64,000 bases of DNA from Diadema antillarum (GCF_040938485.1 NW_027271017.1:186001-250000); one strand, 5' to 3'; numbered from the stretch's first letter, positions 19,854-63,423 are shown. Translations and numbers: made by a program. The notes: generated by a model not told the origin, from the letters alone.

Positions 19854-22800
19854 TGTTATGTACGCGTTAATACTTATGTATGAAATAGGAGGAAAGTTGG
19901 AGAACTCAATAACAAGCGTGCACGCCAAGAAGTACCTTTCCGAAGCTGACTTTATTTCGCACTGCGCAGGCGCAGCATACACTGAAGACGTGTCAGTGCG
20001 TGACACGTGACCTGTACTGTTCTTCATATATAACATCTCTCCCCCCTTAGCTGAAAACTCATTTATGATAAACTTCCAAATAAACCAAAAAACAAAATAT
20101 TTCTTCTCAAACCACAAAATTATAATTTTTTCATTTGAAGTAATGTCGCCAAATATTTGCATAATTGTAACTCTTTTATTTTCTTCATCTTTGTTTTCAT
20201 ACATTAATATATTTTTTTAATAACCCAAATGACTTAAGATAATCACTAAGCACCAAGTCCGGAAATCAAAGTCCTTAATCCTGGTCAGTTCGAGTCCGTT
20301 CATTAAAATCCGTAGTAATCTGGCTTCCGTCTTTCGCGTTTGGGATACGTCTTGCGCGTCGCTTCGACTACTACTTCGTTGTCGGTTCCTTTACGCGTCT
20401 CGACAGCAACATCGTCGTTGTGATCGTGCTCGCCGTCAACTGGATGATCGTTTACCGCGTTTTCATCATGGTTGTCGACTGCATTTTCACCACGACTGTT
20501 GACTGCATTGTCGCTCTCTGCTTTGTCATCGCGAGACGCGACACTCGCGTCCATCTCGACTGCTCTGTCATTGTCTTCTTTCACGGAGTGCGTCATTCTC
20601 GCTTTCAACTGATCGATATGTCGTTTCCAGCGAAACTTCTGACCCCTGAAGACGACCTCCACCGTGTATAGCATAGGCCCTGCACGCTCGATGACGACTC
20701 CAGGCACGTATTTGTCTCCCTGCCCGTAGTTTCGCGCGTACACCGGCGCATGAACTTCGAATTCGCGAAGTGGTGGAGAACGGCGACCTTGCATTTGCGA
20801 ATTTCGCTTTCCCTCGACAACTGAATCGACATCAGGCACCGCTGCCGAGAGTCGTGTTCGCAGTTGTCGCTTCATGAGCAGCTCCGCTGGCGTCTGCATC
20901 GTCGTTGAGTGCGGAGTTGTTCTGTAGCTGAGAAGGAACCGTGACAATTTCACGTGAAGAGGTCCGCTCATTTTTTTCAATGCCGCCTTCACAGTTTGGA
21001 CCGCGCGCTCCGCTAGCCCGTTTGTAGCGGGATGATATGGCGCTCCTCGGATGTGCTTTACGGCATTCTTGCTCATGAATGTCGCAAACTCCTCGCTCGC
21101 AAAACACGGTCCGTTGTCGCTGACGAGCGTGTGTGGCAGACCGTGAGCGGCGAAGATTTCTCTCAGCTTGTCTATAGTCGCTTCACTGGTAGACTTCTTT
21201 GTGATCGCGACTTCCATCCACTTTGTATGGGAATCAATGACGACAAGGAGCATTTTGCCGTCGATGGGACCGGCGTAGTCGACGTGAACGCGTGACCAAG
21301 GTTGTGACGGTCGTTCCCAGGGACACCGTGGCGCTTTTGCTGGATCGCGTTGGTGTATCTGGCACTGAGCACACGATTTCACTCGCTCCTCCAACTCCTT
21401 GTCGATTTGTGGCCACCATACGTAACTGCGAGCTCTTCCTTTCATAGCCACAATTCCTGGGTGCGCAGCATGGATTTCATCTAGCATTTGTGCACGACCC
21501 TGCTGTGGTATCACAACACGAGTTCCACACAATATCACACCATCTTGTACGCTCAATTCATCGCGTCTGTTGACGTATGGCTTCAGCTCATCATCTTTCG
21601 TCAGCATCCGCGTATCTGGCCATCCATGTGTCACAAAATGCCGAACTCGCGACAACGCTCGATCTTTCGATGTGAGGGCGCGTATTCGCGCTGGTGTGAG
21701 TGGCGTCTTCTCCATCGCGTCCATGAGGAGGGCAATGTCACCAGGTACGGGTACGGCTGCGATCGTAGGTGCCAGCGGAAGGCGGCTCAATGCGTCAGCA
21801 TTCGCATTCGCTGCCCCCGCTTTGTGCGTTAGCTGGTAATCGTACGCTGAAAGAGTGATTGCCCAACGCACAACTCGCGGTGATGCCATGTGGGGTATCG
21901 CTTTGTTTTCTCCAAACAAACCTAAGAGAGGCTTGTGGTCAGTGACAATTTCGAATTTCCTTCCGTAGAGATATTGGTGGAATCTTTTGACGCCAAACAC
22001 GATCGCCAGTCCTTCCTTGTCTAGCTGCGAATAACCGCGTTCCGCTTTGCTCAGGGTACGTGATGTGAATCCAATGGGCCTTTCCGATCCGTCAGACATT
22101 TTGTGCGCTAGTACAGCTCCAACGCCGTATGGACTTGCATCACAGCACAAAATCAACTCTAAGCTCGGATCGAAATGAGTGAGAACACTTGCCGATTTGA
22201 GCAATTCTTTTGCCCGTGTGAACGCGTTCACATGTTCGCGTTCCCATTTCCATTTTTCGTCCTTACGAAGGAGACGGTGCAGAGGCTCTAGCGTGGTCGG
22301 AAGGTGAGGCAGGAATTTGCCGTAGTAATTCAGCATTCCCAGAAACGCTCTCAGCTCTTTGATGTTGCTGGGTGGGGGTGCATCGGTGATGGCTTTGACC
22401 TTGTCGGCGGTCGGGCTGAGTCCTTTGGACGTGATCGTGTGTCCCAAATATTGGACTTCATCTGCGAGGAAGACACATTTCTCGTGCTTGAGTCGGAGTC
22501 CTGCTTCCTCGAGAGTGTGAAGAACGCGTTCGAGGTTGGCGAGGTGATCACTGATTGATTCACCTGTGATCAGCAAGTCATCCAGATAAACAGCTACCCC
22601 TGGAATGTCCGCTAGCAAAGTTTCCATTGCTCTCTGGAAGACTGACGGTGCCGTAGAAATACCGAATGGCATTCTGTTGTAATGAAACAATCCCCGATGC
22701 GTGTTTATCGTCACAAATTCGCGAGAGTCTGGATCCAAGACTAGCTGCTGGTACGCATGCGACAGGTCTAATTTCGTGAAGTGCTGTCCCTTGACTAACT

Positions 22801-39790: not shown

Positions 39791-41043
39791 NTCTAATCAA
39801 CTTATACTCTATATTAGTTGTTTCTTTTATGATTTAAAAGTCTTCATCTTCTCTCGTCCCCTGTGTCTCCCTGTCTCTTCCCTTTCTTTGTCTCTCTCTC
39901 TTTCTCTTCTCTACAAAATGAGCCACACAATTCAAAATGTGGGACAAAACCCATTCTTAATCTTTACCATGATATATATTTATTTACAATATTGCTTTAC
40001 AAAAATACATCGATATGATACATCTAGCGTTGTTTTCTGCTGCTCGGACAAAAAAAAACAAAAACATGATATTGCATTTATGTCTCAAAATGGTCTTCCC
40101 TAGGAAATTTCCACCTCCATGGTATACCATTCTACCTCTCGGATATAAAAAAAAAACCCCGAAATAACTTATTATTGCCTTTTTGTCTCAAAGGTGGTGC
40201 GTACCATAATTTATGCAGGTTCTTTCACAATTCGTTTGTGTCAACGTATATACTTTATTATATTTTCTTCTCTTATATTATTAGTTAACATGTACCGAAA
40301 GCATATGAGGACCTATTATTATGTCATTTTCACATGTCATTATCGTTCCCTACAATTACTGTCAGACTGATCAGGGTGATATTAAGATGATTAAGTTCGG
40401 TTTTGCCACTCTTCCGTTTTTCATAACTAAAAGATATGAAATCAATGCAACTGACACCAAATTACATGAAAACGGTTAACTTTGCTTACAGAAACGTATA
40501 CATTTTGCGATAAATACAGTGTACTTGTACTACCATAATATCTCGGAGACAGCGAGGGTTCACATTTCATAGACCAATATCGGTTGCATACGCTATCATG
40601 CTCCTTCTTACCTTAAGACGATCTGATGATATTGCAAATACTTTGCGATATCCTGCTTTCCGTTGTCCCCGCTATAACTGATATATTGTTTTTAAATCTT
40701 TTCCGCAGATAATCTGATTCTATAATCTTTTGTTTCTAATTGTAAAGTGTTGTTTTGCCACTTTTGTTGGTGACTGCTTTTAGGAACAAAGGCATCTTTC
40801 AATGAAATAAAACATGTGGAAACGCAAGACAAAGGTCTGTTCCTTTTTAACTTTGTTTGGTTGTCTAAACAACCAAACAATCTTGATATAACTTCAGCGA
40901 TAGCATGATCAGGTGCGTAAGACAGTAAGAGCGACGCACATGGCAGTTCCTTGATGGAACAGTCAACGCAACTCTTACTAAGTATGCCTACTACAGAATA
41001 CACAAGGTATATCAAAGTCCATAGAATTCAGCCTTGAAATGAT

Positions 41044-43804
<2,761 letters not shown>

Positions 43805-50770: not shown

Positions 50771-53290
<2,520 letters not shown>

Positions 53291-56700: not shown

Positions 56701-57033
56701 TTACCTGCGTCTTATTACAATTATCTCAAACAATATTACAATATGCCATATGAGGGAAAATAAATGCATTGTAAATCATATGTAATGATTTAGATGACAA
56801 CAAATGTCGCAATTTAGATAATATACCAATCTGTTTGGATATAACCGTTATAAACTTTGTTCAAAGTGCAGTGTAGTGCCTGATCCTTGCGTGCTAGGTC
56901 AACGTCTTTACTCACTTTATTGTAACAGGTCACGAATGAATGCGCGCGCACTTAATGAATATTCAAGAGGAGACGCATCAAAACTAGAAATGCAGAGAAT
57001 TGTTGTTTCTCAAAAGCCAGGTTTCCGGGTAAA

Positions 57034-58031
57034 CCATATAAGGCTACTGTTATCTAACATTGCGCAAGTAGTTCCTGATGGTCCCAGATGTGTATAAAAA
57101 TACTGGACGAGGTCTGGCTTCATAAGTCATTGGAAACTTCCCTTCATGAGAAGACAGATCTACCGGCCATACACACAGAAGTGACCATTTATAGGACCCA
57201 GCATCCAGGAACAAGTTTGGGACATCTTGCGTTTTCACAACCCTGGATGCCCAGTTCGCTTCCTGTCAGATAGTCATGTGATGTCTGGTTTGTATGCAAA
57301 TGAAACAGCTATGAATAATTACTGTATGACAGCCAATCGTTTTGCAGTTACTTAATATATGCAGTATTTTGTAACCAATCAAAATAGTATTGCCTTTTTG
57401 ACCATTGAGAGCTTGCCCAGATTATTTTGTAGACCCCACAATTTATTCAGTCCTGCTGTAACTTTCACAGAGTGATCATCTTGTTGTGTCTCAATTTTGC
57501 TCAGATCTGACGCTTCTAGCAGACAATTGAAACAAGAGTGTCAGGCACTATATGCGTCTCCAAAATGACAATTTAACATGGAAATCACTTTTGTATCACA
57601 TGAATCAATGATACTATTTACTTACGTTCATTGTAGCAAGAGAAGAACTGCCGGCGTTTAGCAGATCTACGTGTATTAGTTAACCGTATGTATAGTGGTG
57701 TTGCAGACGACTTCCGAATGTATAGACTGCACGATCGATCCCATCGCGGAGCAAATATTGTGCGATCAATGGGATTTGTGTGCACGTTCGCCCGCCTGAG
57801 GCTCGTTCAAGAATATTCAAACTGCCAATTACATTATTTTATCGATGGCAACCTAACATCGCTTTCATGCAACGGATTTCAAGAACGATGGTAGGCTACC
57901 ATCGATGGTAAGAGAAGCGATGGTTACTTACCATCTTTTTTAATGGTAAGAAAAAGTTTTATGCAACAGCGCACAGTTCTTCCGTGCCGTCGGCATTTTT
58001 TTTTTCGGCAGCCGATTGTCAGCAAATATTG
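57034..58031 (+). promoter_or_regulatory. Locus 7 promoter and non-coding first exon, interrupted by a ~0.72 kb insertion
   Basis: CArG at 57034-57043, TTGCGCAA at 57060-57067, TATA at 57093-57100. Similarity to the locus 5/6 leader stops at ~57230 and resumes at ~57948, ending GCCGATTGTCAGCAAATATTG|GTAAA (donor 58032). Confidence 0.7.
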
Positions 58032-59094
58032 GTAAATATTTGAATGTTCAATGTTTTTACTTTGTTTGCTATTAAATTTATCAATGTACTATATTTGTTG
58101 ATTATGATAATGCTTTTCTTGGCTAGAGGCTTAAAATGCGTCGATTTTATCACGATCTGATGGTTTCTCTGATAGGAATTATGGCATCCAACAAAACAAA
58201 CTATGTATGTCTGCATTCTTATACTAAGTATTCCCAAGGAGGTTTGAGAGATGGAGTTCCAACTGGCTGTAATTGTTCATACAGCTGCTAATTTTCTATT
58301 GATGCACAAAAGAATTCCACAGGTGCATTATTGTGCCTTTGATGATCAGGGTTCCATGCCGCTGTCTTTTTGAGCAATCTGAAGCTTCATTTTAAACTCA
58401 AACATTATATCGTCTATATTCTGCTTGTTCATTTGTCAAATAAAATGAATGTTCTCTTAATGATAAAGCATACGAAACAAAAGTAAATCCCGTCCTAGAT
58501 TATGTACAAAAATGTAAACCTGAGCTGTATGTCGTGAAAATATTTGAAACTGTACTCTCACTACAAAGCCGATTTTATCATCTTTCCGATCGCTTGCGAC
58601 AAATGAAACTGATAAGGTATAATTTTCGAGTATAGTTCTTTATTCATTGATATGTTAGATTAGTGTAAAGTCATGTAAAAACGAGTTATTCTGATTTTCA
58701 TTTCATCAATTTTTGCACAATTTTTATTCGCGCATCCTCGTGCCTATACTATTAATGTGCCGCTTGTTTTCGAGGAAGGGACGGCGAAAAGCAATTACCA
58801 TCATAAAGACATATCTTCCATTGAGAGTGACGAGTCATGATGCAATCCACATGAATCCATTGTCTTCCTATCTGTGAGGCAGCTCCAGTTTAGCACATAC
58901 TTCAAATATTTCTGAGTGGCGGCATGAAACATGGGATCAAAAGGAATGAGACTGTTGTTACTCCATTTCTGAAACCTCCTTGGTATTCCTTAATTGACTC
59001 CATGCTGATAATGTACGGGTGTATTTCATTCTATTTCACACAGATTCACTTGGCCTCTTACTTGGCTAATGAAACCAAAACAAATTCAACAAAT

Positions 59095-59333
59095 ATGGCC
59101 GACTTCGTGAATGATGATGTCGCTCCCCTGGTCATCGACAACGGATCTGGGATATGCAAAGCTGGCTTCGCAGGGGATGATACACCACGGGCTGTCTTCC
59201 CTTCTCTTGTTGGAAGACCAAGACACTATCCAACTTCCCCGGTAAAACGATAACCCCTCTCCATACTTAATTGTAAAATATGTTTCATTTGACACTGTTT
59301 GAGTTCAAGAAAAATCTCTTTCTTTCTATTTCA

Positions 59334-59364
<31 letters not shown>

Positions 59365-62300
59365 ACGTTCTATCACATTCCGCTGCCTTGATCAAGTAAT
59401 TGAAGAAAAAAATTATAAAACAACAACATAATTAATTGGCAGGAAATGTTGAAAGAGGGGGAATTAATATGACTTTATGAGAAAAGTTAAGGTTCCATTT
59501 CATGTGTCTTGGAAAATAAAAATGAAATTAAAAATTAATGACTAATTGATAATGTGTACATTGTATTTCGTACTCATACCATCTATATTATCAGTATGCA
59601 TCGTAGTAATGCCTAGTACAGTATATCTATAAAAATGTAGGTTTATATAGTGAAATATGAAAGAAATTAATGGACATAATGTACTAATTTGCGAGATGAT
59701 ATCAGAGTCTGAGTTATGATACAAGAATTCATGTTATAATTATTTCATCACTATTTAATGTGATAGGAAATGCGAACCAAACATTCGATTAAGTTCCAAT
59801 TGACAATATTGTGAACGGTGATATATACGTTCTACAATGTACTAAATTTTACCCACTCAGATATTCACGGCTGATGGCATGATACCCAAAGACAGCTACG
59901 TCGGATACGAGGCCCAAAGAAGGTGGGGCATTCTCAGCCTCAAATACCCGATCGAACACGGCATCGTCACCAACTGGGACGACATGGAGAAGATCTGGCA
60001 TCACACGTTCTATAACGAACTACGTGTCGTCCCCGAAGAACACCCGGTACTTCTCACCGAGGCCCCGATGAACCCGAAAGCAAACAGGGAAAAGATGACG
60101 CAGGTACAATCTTCCTCCCTTTTGTCTTGTAATATTATTGAGTCACCATTTCTCTCGGTTTGTTTGTTTGTTTGTTTGTTTGTTTTTCGTCTTTCCGCTA
60201 GTATGAAATCAAAAGGTTCAGTATCAATAGTCATATTAGGTCCTCAAGTTTTTATCAACTACAGTTTCTTGGAAAATAATTATAACGGTATGTATAGCTT
60301 CATTTCTCTTTATGCTGCATGACATTGTGTATATGTTACATCATTCGTTTTTCTCTCCCGTTGCTGGTAGTTCTAACTTTCTAACTTCTAACTTTCTAAC
60401 GACTTAGGACCTATGTAAGATTATTCGTATTTATGTTCTGTGTAATGTTGGGTTTCACTCCGGATGTACCAGCTTTTTAATTAAAGTCACTTTCCACTCT
60501 GTGGAAAACTATCACAATGAATTCATTTAACTTTTACTGATGGTGATGATAAAATAATTGTGTCGTCAGTCGAGAACAAATTATACTCAATTTTCATTTA
60601 AGATCACACTAAGATCACTTGAAAATGTCTGCATACATAAATGGTGCCTCGCTCGGATGACTTCATTAGTTTGATCAACTTGCTACTTTCCTTAGCATTG
60701 ATACCATAAGTTTAATCATAACATCATACTATACTTTGTACATTCCGTAGACTTTATAATATTCTAGACATATTGTATATTTGCATGTTACGTCACTTTT
60801 GACATTGATATACTGTACTAAAAGCCTATAATAATTATCATATATTTTTTGAACCCACATTCTACAAGCTGTGCTTTTTCGTGGGTTCCTCATATTACAC
60901 GTCAATTATACGTCTTTATACATTTGTGCAATTTTGATTCAAACTGACCACTGTGTTCAAAACATTTTTTTTCAAAATAAAATGGAATATAAAACTTATA
61001 TGAAATATGGAATATGGAACATGAATAAAAAAAATTTTTATTCTTCTGCTAATATGTAAAATACCACTATAAACTTACTCACACAATATGACGCAACACC
61101 GCATGGACTTATTCTTATCTTTTTTTTATTCTGTGCAGATCATGTTCGAGACGTTCAACACACCAGCCTTGTACGTAGCCATCCAAGCCGTCATGTCCAT
61201 CTACGCCTCGGGACGGACAACAGGGATCGTCTTCGATGCTGGTGATGGCGTCTCCCATACCGTGCCGATCTATGAAGGCTACGCCCTCCCTCATGCTATC
61301 CTTCGTATGGATCTGACCGGTAGAGATCTCACAGATTACCTGATGAAGATGCTCACCGAGAGAGTCTACACCTTCACGTCCACAGGTAGAGATAAAAAAT
61401 GTGATTTATCTCTTGCTTGAATTTGAATTTACTGCCTCCATTTCTGTTTTAAACTTCAGTGTCATACATCACTTGCCTTGGGTAACAGTCGAACACAGAC
61501 TAATACGTTTGTTTTTGTTGATCAAACTACAGATCACATGATGAAGATTCCCACCGAGAGAGGCTACACCTTCCCGTCCACAGGTAGATGTGATTTATTT
61601 TAAACAATAATTTCTTGCTTTAATAGTAAGAATTTATTGTTTCAATTTCTATTTTTTATGTCTAAACTTCAGTGTCATACGTCACTTGCCTTGGGTAAAA
61701 GTCGAACACAGACTAATAAGTTTGTTTTTGTTGATCAAACTAGGACATTTTACGTTTATTTCCCTTTGATTAATGAAGCATAGGGCCTACATATTATCAT
61801 AACCGTCTTACGGAAAGTACTGTAGATGTCACGGGTTTGATAATTTGTTAGAAAATGTATAGAACAAACAAATATTGAATTAAGCAATCTTGGGAATTTT
61901 GTTTGATTTAAAGCCGAGAGAAATATTGTTCGCTACATCAAGGAGAAGCTCTGCTACGTCGCCCTCAACTTCGACCAGGAGATGGAAGCCTCCGCGAGGT
62001 CATCGTCCCTCGAGAAGAGCTACCAGCTTCCCGACGGTCAGGTGATCACCATCGGCAACGAACGCTTCCGGGCTCCCGAGGCGCTCTTCCAACCGTCCTT
62101 CCTGGGCCAAGAGCTGGCCGGAATCCACGAGACCACCTTTAACAGCATCATGAAGTGTGACGTAGACATCCGAAGGGATCTCTGTAGCAACACCGTCCTC
62201 TCTGGTGGGACCACCATGTTTCCTGGAATCGCTGACAGGATGCACAAGGAGCTGACGGCCCTAGCTCCTCCATCCATGAAGATCAAGATCATCGCTCCTC

Positions 62301-62431
62301 CAGAGAGGAAGTACTCGGTCTGGATCGGAGGCTCCATCCTGGCTTCCTTGTCTACCTTCCAACAGATGTGCATCAGCAAACAGGAGTACGATGAGTCGGG
62401 ACCAGGCATCGTTCACAGGAAATGCTTTTAA
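59095..62431 (+). CDS. act: Divergent actin, locus 7 (384 aa predicted)
   Basis: Exons 59095-59241 (12-nt insertion before the donor CCG|GTAAAA), 59861-60103, 61139-61385 and 61914-62431. The frame is open throughout. Confidence 0.88.
61331..61741 (+). repeat. Tandem duplication (~200 bp unit) of the exon 3 end plus intron 3 start of locus 7
   Basis: Unit 1 is 61331-61528 and unit 2 is 61529-61741. Both contain ACAGAT..ATGAAGAT..CACCGAGAGAG..TACACCTTC.CGTCCACAGGTAGA and CACTTGCCTTGGGTAA.AGTCGAACACAGACTAATA. Confidence 0.92.
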
Positions 62432-63423
62432 ATCATTTGAAGGCTGAATTATGGAACTTTGAATGCATGTCCCGCGTACATTCTGGCTGTTGTGTTCGAT
62501 TTTCTGTAACAGAGCAGTAATATTGTGCATTGCTCTTACGTCCCTGTTGCTGAAGTTTTGATTAGTTTGTTTTGTTGTATGGGGGAATTTTTTTCTACAC
62601 GTTTCATTTCTTGAAAAATACTTGTAGGCAAAACAGCTGTCAACAGAAGTGACAAAAATATCAAATTACAATCAGAAATGAATGGTTGAAATGAAGAGAT
62701 TACCATAGTAACTGAGAAATAAGCTTTGATTCGAATGAACTATCAGGTAAGTTTTAATCGCGGCAAAGATCAAAGCAAATATCATTTGTACCTGCGACAA
62801 CTGGACACATGTTGTGGCAAAGATGTTCAGTGTTATCTTGCAGAACATTTTTTATCCGTTGTCTACGTAATTTGGTAGTCACCGTATCCTTAACACACCC
62901 TGTTCCCTTAAACATTGCTCTCCGTAACAGAACATATCTGTTATTGCAGGTTATTGTCTGGTAATGTCCGATGGTAATTGTGATAGACGTTCACATCAAC
63001 ATTTAACATCATCCTGTGCTTATAATATTATGCTGTCGACTATGTCAACTCAATATTTAAAAAAAATACTATACAAAAAAAATGAACAAATTACAAGTGA
63101 GCTTTTTTCTATCTTTCAATCTTTGAGACATGTATCTAAGAATATATGCTATGGTGATACGAGCACCAGAAAATGGCGGTAAAATGTACCATATCCGTGT
63201 AATATTGTAAACTGACTGTAAAATACATGTACAGTATGATTGCTTGTATTCCAAAAAGCTGTGTCCTGCATTTCTGTATGCCTCATCTGCAGAGTGAGCA
63301 AAGAAGAGAGAGAGAGAGATGGAGTCGGGGGGGGGGGGGGTAGATATCACTTGGACTCACTGGAGGAAGTTGAAAATGGAACAGACACACAAAGCATATA
63401 ATTGATGCAATACAAGTATATGC

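What the first reader, a model, noticed from the sequence alone, without database searches (positions are those of the whole stretch)
59095..62431. Locus 7: CArG-driven actin with R62W and a rebuilt D-loop, a candidate non-polymerising feedback or decoy actin
Seen: an open frame with a 12-nt plus a 3-nt in-frame insertion giving [17 protein letters not shown], and substitutions D56Y, R62W, G197V, E207N, D211Y, D222N, Y294C and W356C. The ATP motifs, H73, Q137, R177 and the 143/345-349 cleft are intact. Established: the engineered R62D mutant cannot polymerise, and monomeric actin binds RPEL motifs to hold MRTF inactive and repress SRF/CArG genes. Inference: an SRF-inducible monomeric actin could be a built-in negative feedback on MRTF-SRF, or a sink for actin-targeting toxins. 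Early pseudogenisation is equally possible.
Basis: partly seen in the sequence, partly recalled or inferred. Interest (0 to 1): 0.7.

Follow-up and report, generated by a model that had tools for sequence, protein, structure and literature searches.

The report
Decaying duplicate sea-urchin actin gene
This is an extra copy of a sea-urchin actin gene that still reads as a whole protein but gathers damaging changes about ten times faster than its sister copies, so it is most likely a duplicate in decay rather than a purpose-built regulator.

Summary
The sequence observation is correct: a four-exon actin with an open 384-codon frame, two in-frame D-loop insertions and all eight listed substitutions. 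It is the third tandem copy of a sea-urchin actin subfamily (loci 5, 6, 7). Relatives in Lytechinus and Strongylocentrotus keep R62, D56, G197 and W356 and have no insertion. The assembly holds a second haplotype, which allowed selection tests. Locus 7 has dN/dS 0.44 against 0.044 for the other actins. The two alleles differ by 11 amino-acid and 8 silent changes, against 7 and 48 in three sister genes. Changes beyond residue 62 hit conserved positions as random mutation would. The CArG box is inherited from the sisters, and repeats inserted into the untranslated leader exon put 22-24 upstream ATGs ahead of the start codon (start site inferred). Best reading: a duplicate under strongly relaxed selection (0.6). 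Neutrality is not complete (omega=1 rejected at p=0.017; no stop or frameshift), and changes cluster in residues 41-62, so a functional non-polymerising actin remains possible (0.25). The MRTF-feedback or toxin-decoy role has no specific support (0.05). Expression could not be tested.

The parts
57034..57043 (+). CArG box CCATATAAGG, identical in loci 5 and 6 and in the second haplotype
57093..57099 (+). TATA box; the promoter block 57026-57229 has about 5 locus-7-specific changes in 200 nt, as conserved as in loci 5/6
   Evidence: alignment counted by eye
57122..57229 (+). 5' part of the untranslated leader exon (start inferred as TATA+30)
   Evidence: homology to loci 5/6 ends at 57229
57240..57976 (.). 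Two interspersed repeats (57240-57511 and 57514-57976) inserted into the leader exon, present in both haplotypes
   Evidence: many genomic copies at 74-87% identity
57985..58031 (+). Displaced 3' end of the leader exon with its splice donor (ATTG|GTAAAT)
   Evidence: local score 72 against locus 6; 100 shuffles give 34+/-4, maximum 48
58235..58982 (.). 748-bp MITE-like element with terminal inverted repeats and a 7-bp target duplication GTATTCC, in the 5' intron; absent from the second haplotype
59044..59241 (+). Coding exon 1 (inferred acceptor at 59043, ATG at 59095, out-of-frame upstream ATG at 59069); 12-nt in-frame insertion at 59227-59238
59861..60103 (+). Exon 2: 3-nt insertion at 59873-59875; cluster of amino-acid changes in residues 42-62; R62W codon at 59924-59926
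60339..61051 (.). About 713 bp of intron 2 absent from the second haplotype
61139..61385 (+). Exon 3 (F132L, L142I, A181T, I192M, G197V against loci 5/6)
61529..61742 (+). Tandem duplicate of the end of exon 3, its donor and part of intron 3, in both haplotypes; holds a possible 51-nt in-frame cryptic exon at 61533-61583
   Evidence: sequence read directly
61914..62431 (+). Exon 4 (acceptor AAG where loci 5/6 have CAG; E207N, D211Y, D222N, E241Q, Y294C; W356C codon at 62369-62371); 16 of the 19 allelic differences lie here

Best explanation
Locus 7 is a tandem duplicate of the sea-urchin actin subfamily of loci 5 and 6 whose protein changes about ten times faster than its sisters, and it is likely a redundant copy in decay that makes little working protein. 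Steps: (1) Whole-gene duplication, shown by collinear promoter, leader, four exons and introns. (2) Repeats inserted into the leader exon (shown); these would put more than 20 upstream ATGs before the start codon and throttle translation (inferred; start site assumed). (3) With the sisters supplying the function, selection relaxed (shown as omega 0.44 against 0.044), and substitutions accumulated with little regard to conservation (shown for residues 63-375). (4) The 3' part and promoter were probably homogenised with the sisters by gene conversion, leaving an older 5' tract where the D-loop changes sit (mosaic shown, conversion inferred). (5) Any protein made would likely fold less well and not polymerise (predicted). 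Decay is incomplete: the frame is open in both alleles and some constraint remains or was lost only recently.
For: Branch model: omega 0.44 on locus 7 against 0.044 elsewhere, p=2e-14; omega=1 not rejected for the 3' part (p=0.10) or the 5' part (p=0.16). Allelic N:S 11:8 against 7:48 in loci 5, 6 and the next cluster actin 'L8', Fisher p=2.3e-4. Residues rare among homologues (<1% in 352 aligned segments): 9 of 11 fixed 3' changes and 10 of 11 allelic changes, against 82% for random changes, 2 of 33 for loci 5/6 and 11 of 47 for L8. R62, D222 and W356 are kept by 6, 7 and 7 of 7 cluster paralogues only about 50% identical to actin, but are lost in both alleles. W356C and G268D are listed as pathogenic and S350P as likely pathogenic ACTA1 variants (PMC11918651 supplements). 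The inferred leader is 909-923 nt with 22-24 ATGs against 177-202 nt with 1. There is a polymorphic MITE, a 713-bp indel and a partial exon duplication. The 4 aligned camarodont relatives lack all eight listed changes and the insertion.
Against: omega=1 is rejected for the whole gene, p=0.017. Only 11 allelic amino-acid changes occur where local non-coding divergence predicts 19.6 (P=0.027); exons 1-3 have 1 against 7.2 expected (P=0.006, split chosen after seeing the data). There is no stop or frameshift where 2.7 are expected (P=0.065), and both fixed indels keep frame (P=0.05-0.07). Residues 41-62 show 10 N:1 S against 6:8 in the rest of exon 1 (Fisher p=0.033), which uniform decay does not predict. 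Allelic N:S does not differ from that of 7 divergent actin-like neighbours (32:43, p=0.30). Only 3 of 30 locus-7 changes hit positions those neighbours keep (21% of positions). The promoter block is as conserved as in the sisters. 9 of the 11 allelic changes are on the other haplotype, so the window's allele may be the healthier one (2N:4S against 9N:3S, p=0.14).
Confidence: 0.6

Rival explanations
1. A functional but weakly constrained actin-like protein that has given up filament formation. Subdomain 2 (D-loop to R62) was released or remodelled while the nucleotide site and barbed-end cleft were kept, so it would act as a monomer or a pointed-end cap in one tissue, on the same path as the roughly 50%-identical actin-like genes of this cluster.
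For: Clustering of changes in residues 41-62 (9 N in 50 sites in exon 2a; p=0.02-0.03 within the old tract). In-frame indels, open frame, deficit of allelic changes in exons 1-3. Conserved promoter. Neighbours show similar allelic ratios. Precedent in Drosophila lineage-specific Arps (PMC7038667, abstract start and passages).
Against: Random-like changes elsewhere. Loss of W356 and D222, which all 7 divergent neighbours keep. Two alleles differing at 11 residues. Disrupted leader. No orthologue with these changes among the 120 rows listed in each (weak: only about 8,000 candidates scored, clusters show one representative). A five-residue D-loop insertion alone need not block polymerisation: in Arp2 it did not change rates in vitro (PMC12632905, abstract).
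Confidence: 0.25
2. One reading: an SRF-induced monomeric actin that binds RPEL motifs and brakes MRTF-SRF, or soaks up actin-targeting toxins.
For: CArG present. Y143, G146, E167 and 345-349 unchanged; G146 and E167 are RPEL contacts (PMC2583105, passages). R62D is a non-polymerisable mutant and MRTF binds monomers (PMC6503952, passages). The genome has RPEL-motif genes: 10 of 14 matches over the Pfam cut-off, in two allelic pairs of loci.
Against: CArG boxes also lie near loci 5 and 6 and in the four other actin loci scanned, and are a general feature of actin promoters with monomer feedback already built in (PMC12868001, passages). R62W is not R62D. The leader is disrupted. The second allele carries S350P and Q353H beside the cleft. 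Nothing here bears on toxins.
Confidence: 0.05
3. A fully dead pseudogene whose frame is open by luck and is partly reset by gene conversion, with some allelic differences being assembly errors.
For: Mosaic history. Exon 4 allelic changes match neutral expectation (10 against 12.3). One conventional actin has two compensating frameshifts in one haplotype only, so errors may exist in the assembly.
Against: Whole-gene omega below 1, deficit of changes in exons 1-3, no disabling change. Sister genes show only 7 allelic amino-acid changes in three genes, which caps the error rate.
Confidence: 0.1

Closest known systems
Conventional actin (Pfam PF00022; human beta-actin)
   Same: 468 bits over residues 7-384; about 83-84% identity; nucleotide motifs, H73, Q137 and the barbed-end cleft kept.
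   Different: Five extra D-loop residues; R62W, D56Y, G197V, E207N, D222N, W356C; omega ten times higher.
Echinoid divergent actin subfamily (loci 5/6; P0181, P0182 Lytechinus; P0185, P0208 Strongylocentrotus; automatically named 'actin, cytoplasmic' or 'CyI-like')
   Same: Shares M110, M140, A155, D224, H314, L317, S324 and G368; same introns and promoter as loci 5/6.
   Different: All of them keep D56, R62, G197, E207, D211, D222, Y294 and W356 and have no insertion; loci 5/6 are under strong purifying selection (dN/dS 0.015-0.04 between them).
Engineered non-polymerisable actin R62D
   Same: Loss of Arg62; cleft intact in the window's allele.
   Different: Trp rather than Asp; about 30 further changes and indels; no evidence of expression or folding.
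Lineage-specific actin/Arp duplicates of Drosophila (D-ActL1-3, Arp2D, Arp53D)
   Same: Young duplicates of cytoskeletal genes, fast-evolving, some retained and some pseudogenised (PMC7038667, passages).
   Different: Those have shown testis expression and positive selection; neither is shown here.
Arp2 D-loop microexon
   Same: Five extra residues in the D-loop (PMC12632905, abstract).
   Different: That is an alternative exon retained over 600 million years; this is a private pair of insertions in one gene.

Membership tests
Actin family (PF00022) | Full-length match to the actin profile | tested here: met
   468 and 463 bits against a cut-off of 27 for the two alleles
Actin family (PF00022) | Phosphate loops, H73, Q137, adenine pocket | tested here: met
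   unchanged apart from M16I and the subfamily's S155A; residue list partly from recall
Conventional polymerising actin | Conserved D-loop, R62 and filament contacts | tested here: not met
   D-loop +5 residues, S60R, K61R, R62W, G197V, E207N, E241Q; D-loop and 240-249 contacts from PMC7247010 passages
Conventional polymerising actin | Strong purifying selection | tested here: not met
   omega 0.44 against 0.044
Conventional polymerising actin | Forms filaments in vitro | not testable with these tools
   needs pyrene or TIRF assay
Echinoid divergent actin subfamily (loci 5/6) | Diagnostic residues and grouping with loci 5/6 | tested here: met
   locus 7 + 5 + 6 clade has bootstrap 100 in the whole-gene and 3' trees; the 5' tree is unresolved; residues
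Unprocessed pseudogene | Disabling stop or frameshift | tested here: not met
   open 384-codon frame in both haplotypes
Unprocessed pseudogene | Neutral evolution (omega = 1) | tested here: inconclusive
   rejected at p=0.017 overall, not in either part alone; allelic N:S compatible with neutrality (p=0.15-0.20) but N count low
Unprocessed pseudogene | No functional product | not testable with these tools
   needs RNA and protein data for the species
R62D-like MRTF-repressing monomeric actin | Intact RPEL-binding cleft and ledge | tested here: inconclusive
   sequence intact in the window allele; S350P and Q353H in the other; W356C and L142I in both; binding not tested
R62D-like MRTF-repressing monomeric actin | SRF-inducible expression | tested here: inconclusive
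   CArG present but shared with sisters; leader interrupted by repeats
R62D-like MRTF-repressing monomeric actin | Represses SRF reporter, binds RPEL | not testable with these tools
   cell and biochemical assays needed

The most novel reading that the evidence does not exclude
Locus 7 is a natural non-polymerising actin caught in the act of leaving the filament. Its pointed-end face (residues 41-62, 197, 207, 241) has been remodelled while the barbed-end cleft is kept, so it caps pointed ends or holds RPEL, WH2 or profilin partners, MRTF included, and is the youngest recruit to a cluster that has already produced at least seven actin-like proteins of about 50% identity.
Probability: 0.15. Interest if true: 0.65.

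Novelty: new member of a known kind. Interest (0 to 1): 0.25.

Why it matters
As a decaying duplicate it is an ordinary birth-and-death product of a multigene family, though a clean snapshot of an actin about halfway to neutrality with both alleles in view. If it is expressed and folded, it would be a natural counterpart of engineered non-polymerising actins and a direct test of how actin-related proteins arise from actin. The more solid by-product is the cluster itself: a conserved echinoid actin subfamily with an altered D-loop next to at least seven roughly 50%-identical actin-like genes. My two literature searches on sea-urchin actin gene families (listings only, open-access library) showed no description of it.

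Tried and rejected
Expression: the one search for RNA runs (window 59040-62700) listed none; that is no evidence either way, and no reads could be laid. Structure: AlphaFold2 with a 9-sequence alignment gave mean pLDDT 28.8, unusable; it was not repeated and no fold search was run, since family membership is plain from sequence. No RPEL complex prediction was run, because such a pair would tend to pass by likeness to solved structures. Orthologue search with the exon 4 of locus 5 was swamped by multi-domain actin fusions. Earlier findings of the scan: nothing. RPEL search at the default threshold found nothing; at E<=10 it gave 14 matches. My early note that the leader-exon donor was lost was wrong: it is displaced to 58031. 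The AAG acceptor of exon 4 was considered as a splice defect and set aside, because the conserved L8 gene also uses AAG at exon 2. A separate donor gene for the old 5' tract was sought and not found: only the allele matches intron 1 (16 of 16 candidates scored). Papers: two look-ups of a cryo-EM F-actin paper failed, so the role of residues 197, 207 and 60-62 in filament contacts is partly from recall; the search for W356C/G268D/G197S in main texts found 0; PMC3038201 passages added nothing; some searches were seen as listings only. Rows dropped: the conventional actin on contig C25 (frameshifted) was left out. In one search the 5' set wrongly included G42I (shared with loci 5/6); without it 7 of 12 changes are to rare residues, and I did not recompute that P value. 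Counts come from trimmed tblastn segments and carry some intron spill (locus 5 gave 7 N against the exact 4).

Full report
Observation. The four coding exons (59095-59241, 59861-60103, 61139-61385, 61914-62431) have GT-AG introns after codons 41, 121 and within 203/204 and give an open frame of 384 codons. The product is identical to P0121, a predicted (XP) protein that its source names 'actin, cytoplasmic-like' of the sea urchin Diadema antillarum. Pfam gives PF00022 at 468 bits, and the best solved relatives are beta-actins.

Context. A search of the own genome shows most actin exon-4 hits in pairs on different contigs, as expected of two haplotypes. The partner of this cluster (contig C608) is collinear, with introns and flanks about 98% identical apart from indels. 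Its locus-7 product equals P0093. Locus 7 follows loci 5 and 6, which are 379-aa actins with D-loop [12 protein letters not shown] further relative (L8) lies 48 kb on, and seven actin-like genes of 47-51% identity lie upstream. Proteins with the same diagnostic residues occur in Lytechinus and Strongylocentrotus. All 4 that I aligned keep D56, R62, G197, E207, D211, D222, Y294 and W356 and have no insertion. Part of the 'rebuilt D-loop' is therefore an old subfamily trait, and the rest is private to locus 7. No orthologue with the private changes appeared among the 120 rows listed in each; this is weak, since only about 8,000 candidates were scored and clusters show one representative.

Selection. 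The two alleles of locus 7 differ by 11 amino-acid and 8 silent changes (pN/pS 0.42-0.47). Loci 5, 6 and L8 together differ by 7 and 48 (Fisher p=2.3e-4). D211Y and Y294C are confined to the window's allele; the other has S66I, Y240H, G268D, L271R, S350P, Q353H, S365W, G368R and I369M. My own MG94 branch model (11 sequences, fixed topology, no rate variation, inserted codons dropped) gives omega 0.44 for locus 7 against 0.044 for the background (p=2e-14). omega=1 is rejected at p=0.017 for the whole gene but not for the 3' (p=0.10) or 5' (p=0.16) part. Gene conversion violates the single-tree assumption, so these are approximate.

Kind of change. Scored against 352 aligned actin segments from the proteins fetched, 9 of 11 fixed changes beyond residue 62 and 10 of 11 allelic changes introduce a residue seen in under 1% of homologues. 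Random non-synonymous changes do so in 82% of cases, loci 5/6 in 2 of 33 and L8 in 11 of 47. R62, D222 and W356 are kept by 6, 7 and 7 of the 7 divergent neighbours yet lost in both alleles. The exact changes W356C and G268D are classed pathogenic and S350P likely pathogenic in human ACTA1 (PMC11918651, supplement rows). The sparing of ATP, H73 and cleft residues has P=0.14 by chance.

Regulatory region. The CArG (57034) and TATA (57093) are shared with loci 5 and 6, and CArG boxes are a general feature of actin promoters (PMC12868001, passages). Homology to the sisters' leader exon stops at 57229 and resumes near 57985, with the donor at 58031. Between lie two multi-copy repeats present in both haplotypes. 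With the start taken as TATA+30 (assumed), the leader is 909-923 nt with 22-24 ATGs, against 177-202 nt with one in loci 5/6. A new start within or after the repeats would escape this and cannot be excluded. A 748-bp MITE-like element sits in the 5' intron of the window's allele only. Intron 3 holds a duplicate of the end of exon 3.

Mosaic history. Intron 1 barely aligns with those of loci 5/6 (scores 54-59; shuffles 38-42), while introns 2 and 3 are 76-83% identical. The locus-7 stem is 0.195 neutral substitutions per site in the 5' part and 0.027 in the 3' part. The D-loop changes thus sit in an older tract, and the 3' part was probably homogenised by gene conversion (inference).

Evidence against simple decay. 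Local non-coding divergence predicts 19.6 allelic amino-acid changes under neutrality; 11 are seen (P=0.027). In exons 1-3 there is 1 against 7.2 (post hoc), while exon 4 fits neutrality. 2.7 disabling changes are expected and none is seen (P=0.065); two in-frame indels have P=0.05-0.07. Within the old tract, residues 41-62 have 10 N:1 S against 6:8 for the rest of exon 1 (p=0.033), as if subdomain 2 was released before the core. The allelic ratio does not differ from that of the divergent neighbours (32:43, p=0.30), and only 3 of 30 locus-7 changes fall on positions those neighbours keep. The promoter block is well conserved. Each signal is modest and several tests were run, but they point the same way: constraint is much reduced, not clearly gone.

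Mechanism. Most likely (0.6) a redundant duplicate with a crippled leader, under relaxed or recently lost selection, whose product would fold and polymerise poorly. Second (0.25), a weakly constrained non-polymerising actin-like protein. A long-dead pseudogene gets 0.1. The specific MRTF brake or toxin decoy gets 0.05: its premises (R62D is non-polymerisable, MRTF binds monomers, RPEL binds the subdomain 1-3 cleft) are right (PMC6503952 passages; PMC2583105 passages), and RPEL-motif genes exist in the genome, but nothing specific to locus 7 supports it. A five-residue D-loop insertion did not alter Arp2/3 polymerisation rates in vitro (PMC12632905, abstract), so the insertion alone proves little. 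Expression is untested.

Verdict. Real feature, correctly described, most probably ordinary birth-and-death evolution in an actin array. Novelty: new member of a known kind. Interest 0.25; 0.65 if the non-polymerising reading (probability 0.15) held.

Noticed in passing
window 41043-43798 (-) and 50795-53290 (+); P0181, P0182, P0185, P0208, P0217: Loci 5/6 belong to an actin subfamily shared by diadematid and camarodont urchins, with D-loop HQ-IIM(A/T)GMG(S/N/P)K and about 37 differences from cytoplasmic actin, under strong purifying selection; not described in the listings.
   Followed up: partly
window 720-37917 and G000:C129:154300-183000: At least seven actin-like genes of 47-51% identity in one tandem cluster, with pooled allelic N:S about 32:43; they resemble lineage-specific Arps and are a better lead than locus 7.
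   Followed up: partly
L035:3700-6580 (G000:C129:295.7-298.6 kb): A further divergent actin (L8; P0219, orthologue P0213 named D. setosum) that lacks the intron at 121, has K113R and D179N, and shows no allelic amino-acid change.
   Followed up: partly
window 20303-24412 (-): An open 1369-codon gag-pol-like frame of an LTR retrotransposon (identified by its motifs from recall); spacing of the flanking genes on contig C608 is about 5 kb shorter, so it is probably present in one haplotype only.
   Followed up: no
window 58235-58982: MITE-like element with CAAGG termini and a 7-bp target duplication; all 38 other hits scored are 91-95% identical, out of 4220 candidates. Termini resemble P-element types (recall).
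   Followed up: partly
window 61533-61583: The duplicated end of exon 3 forms a possible 51-nt in-frame cryptic exon with its own AG and GT; it retains the ancestral G197 codon.
   Followed up: no
window 42928-42930 (-): The exon 2 acceptor of locus 5 reads GAG in this haplotype and CAG in the other, a possible splice-weakening variant.
   Followed up: no
L040:6370-7020 (G000:C25): A conventional actin with two compensating frameshifts; its partner L055 is intact, so possibly an assembly error.
   Followed up: partly
G000:C129:2532139-2538081 and C609:275866-308100: Two genes with RPEL motifs (three close together; one plus two), candidates for MRTF and Phactr by arrangement (naming from recall).
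   Followed up: no
window 24725-32535: Locus 3 spans 7.8 kb here but about 3.7 kb on contig C608, implying a polymorphic intronic insertion of about 4 kb.
   Followed up: no
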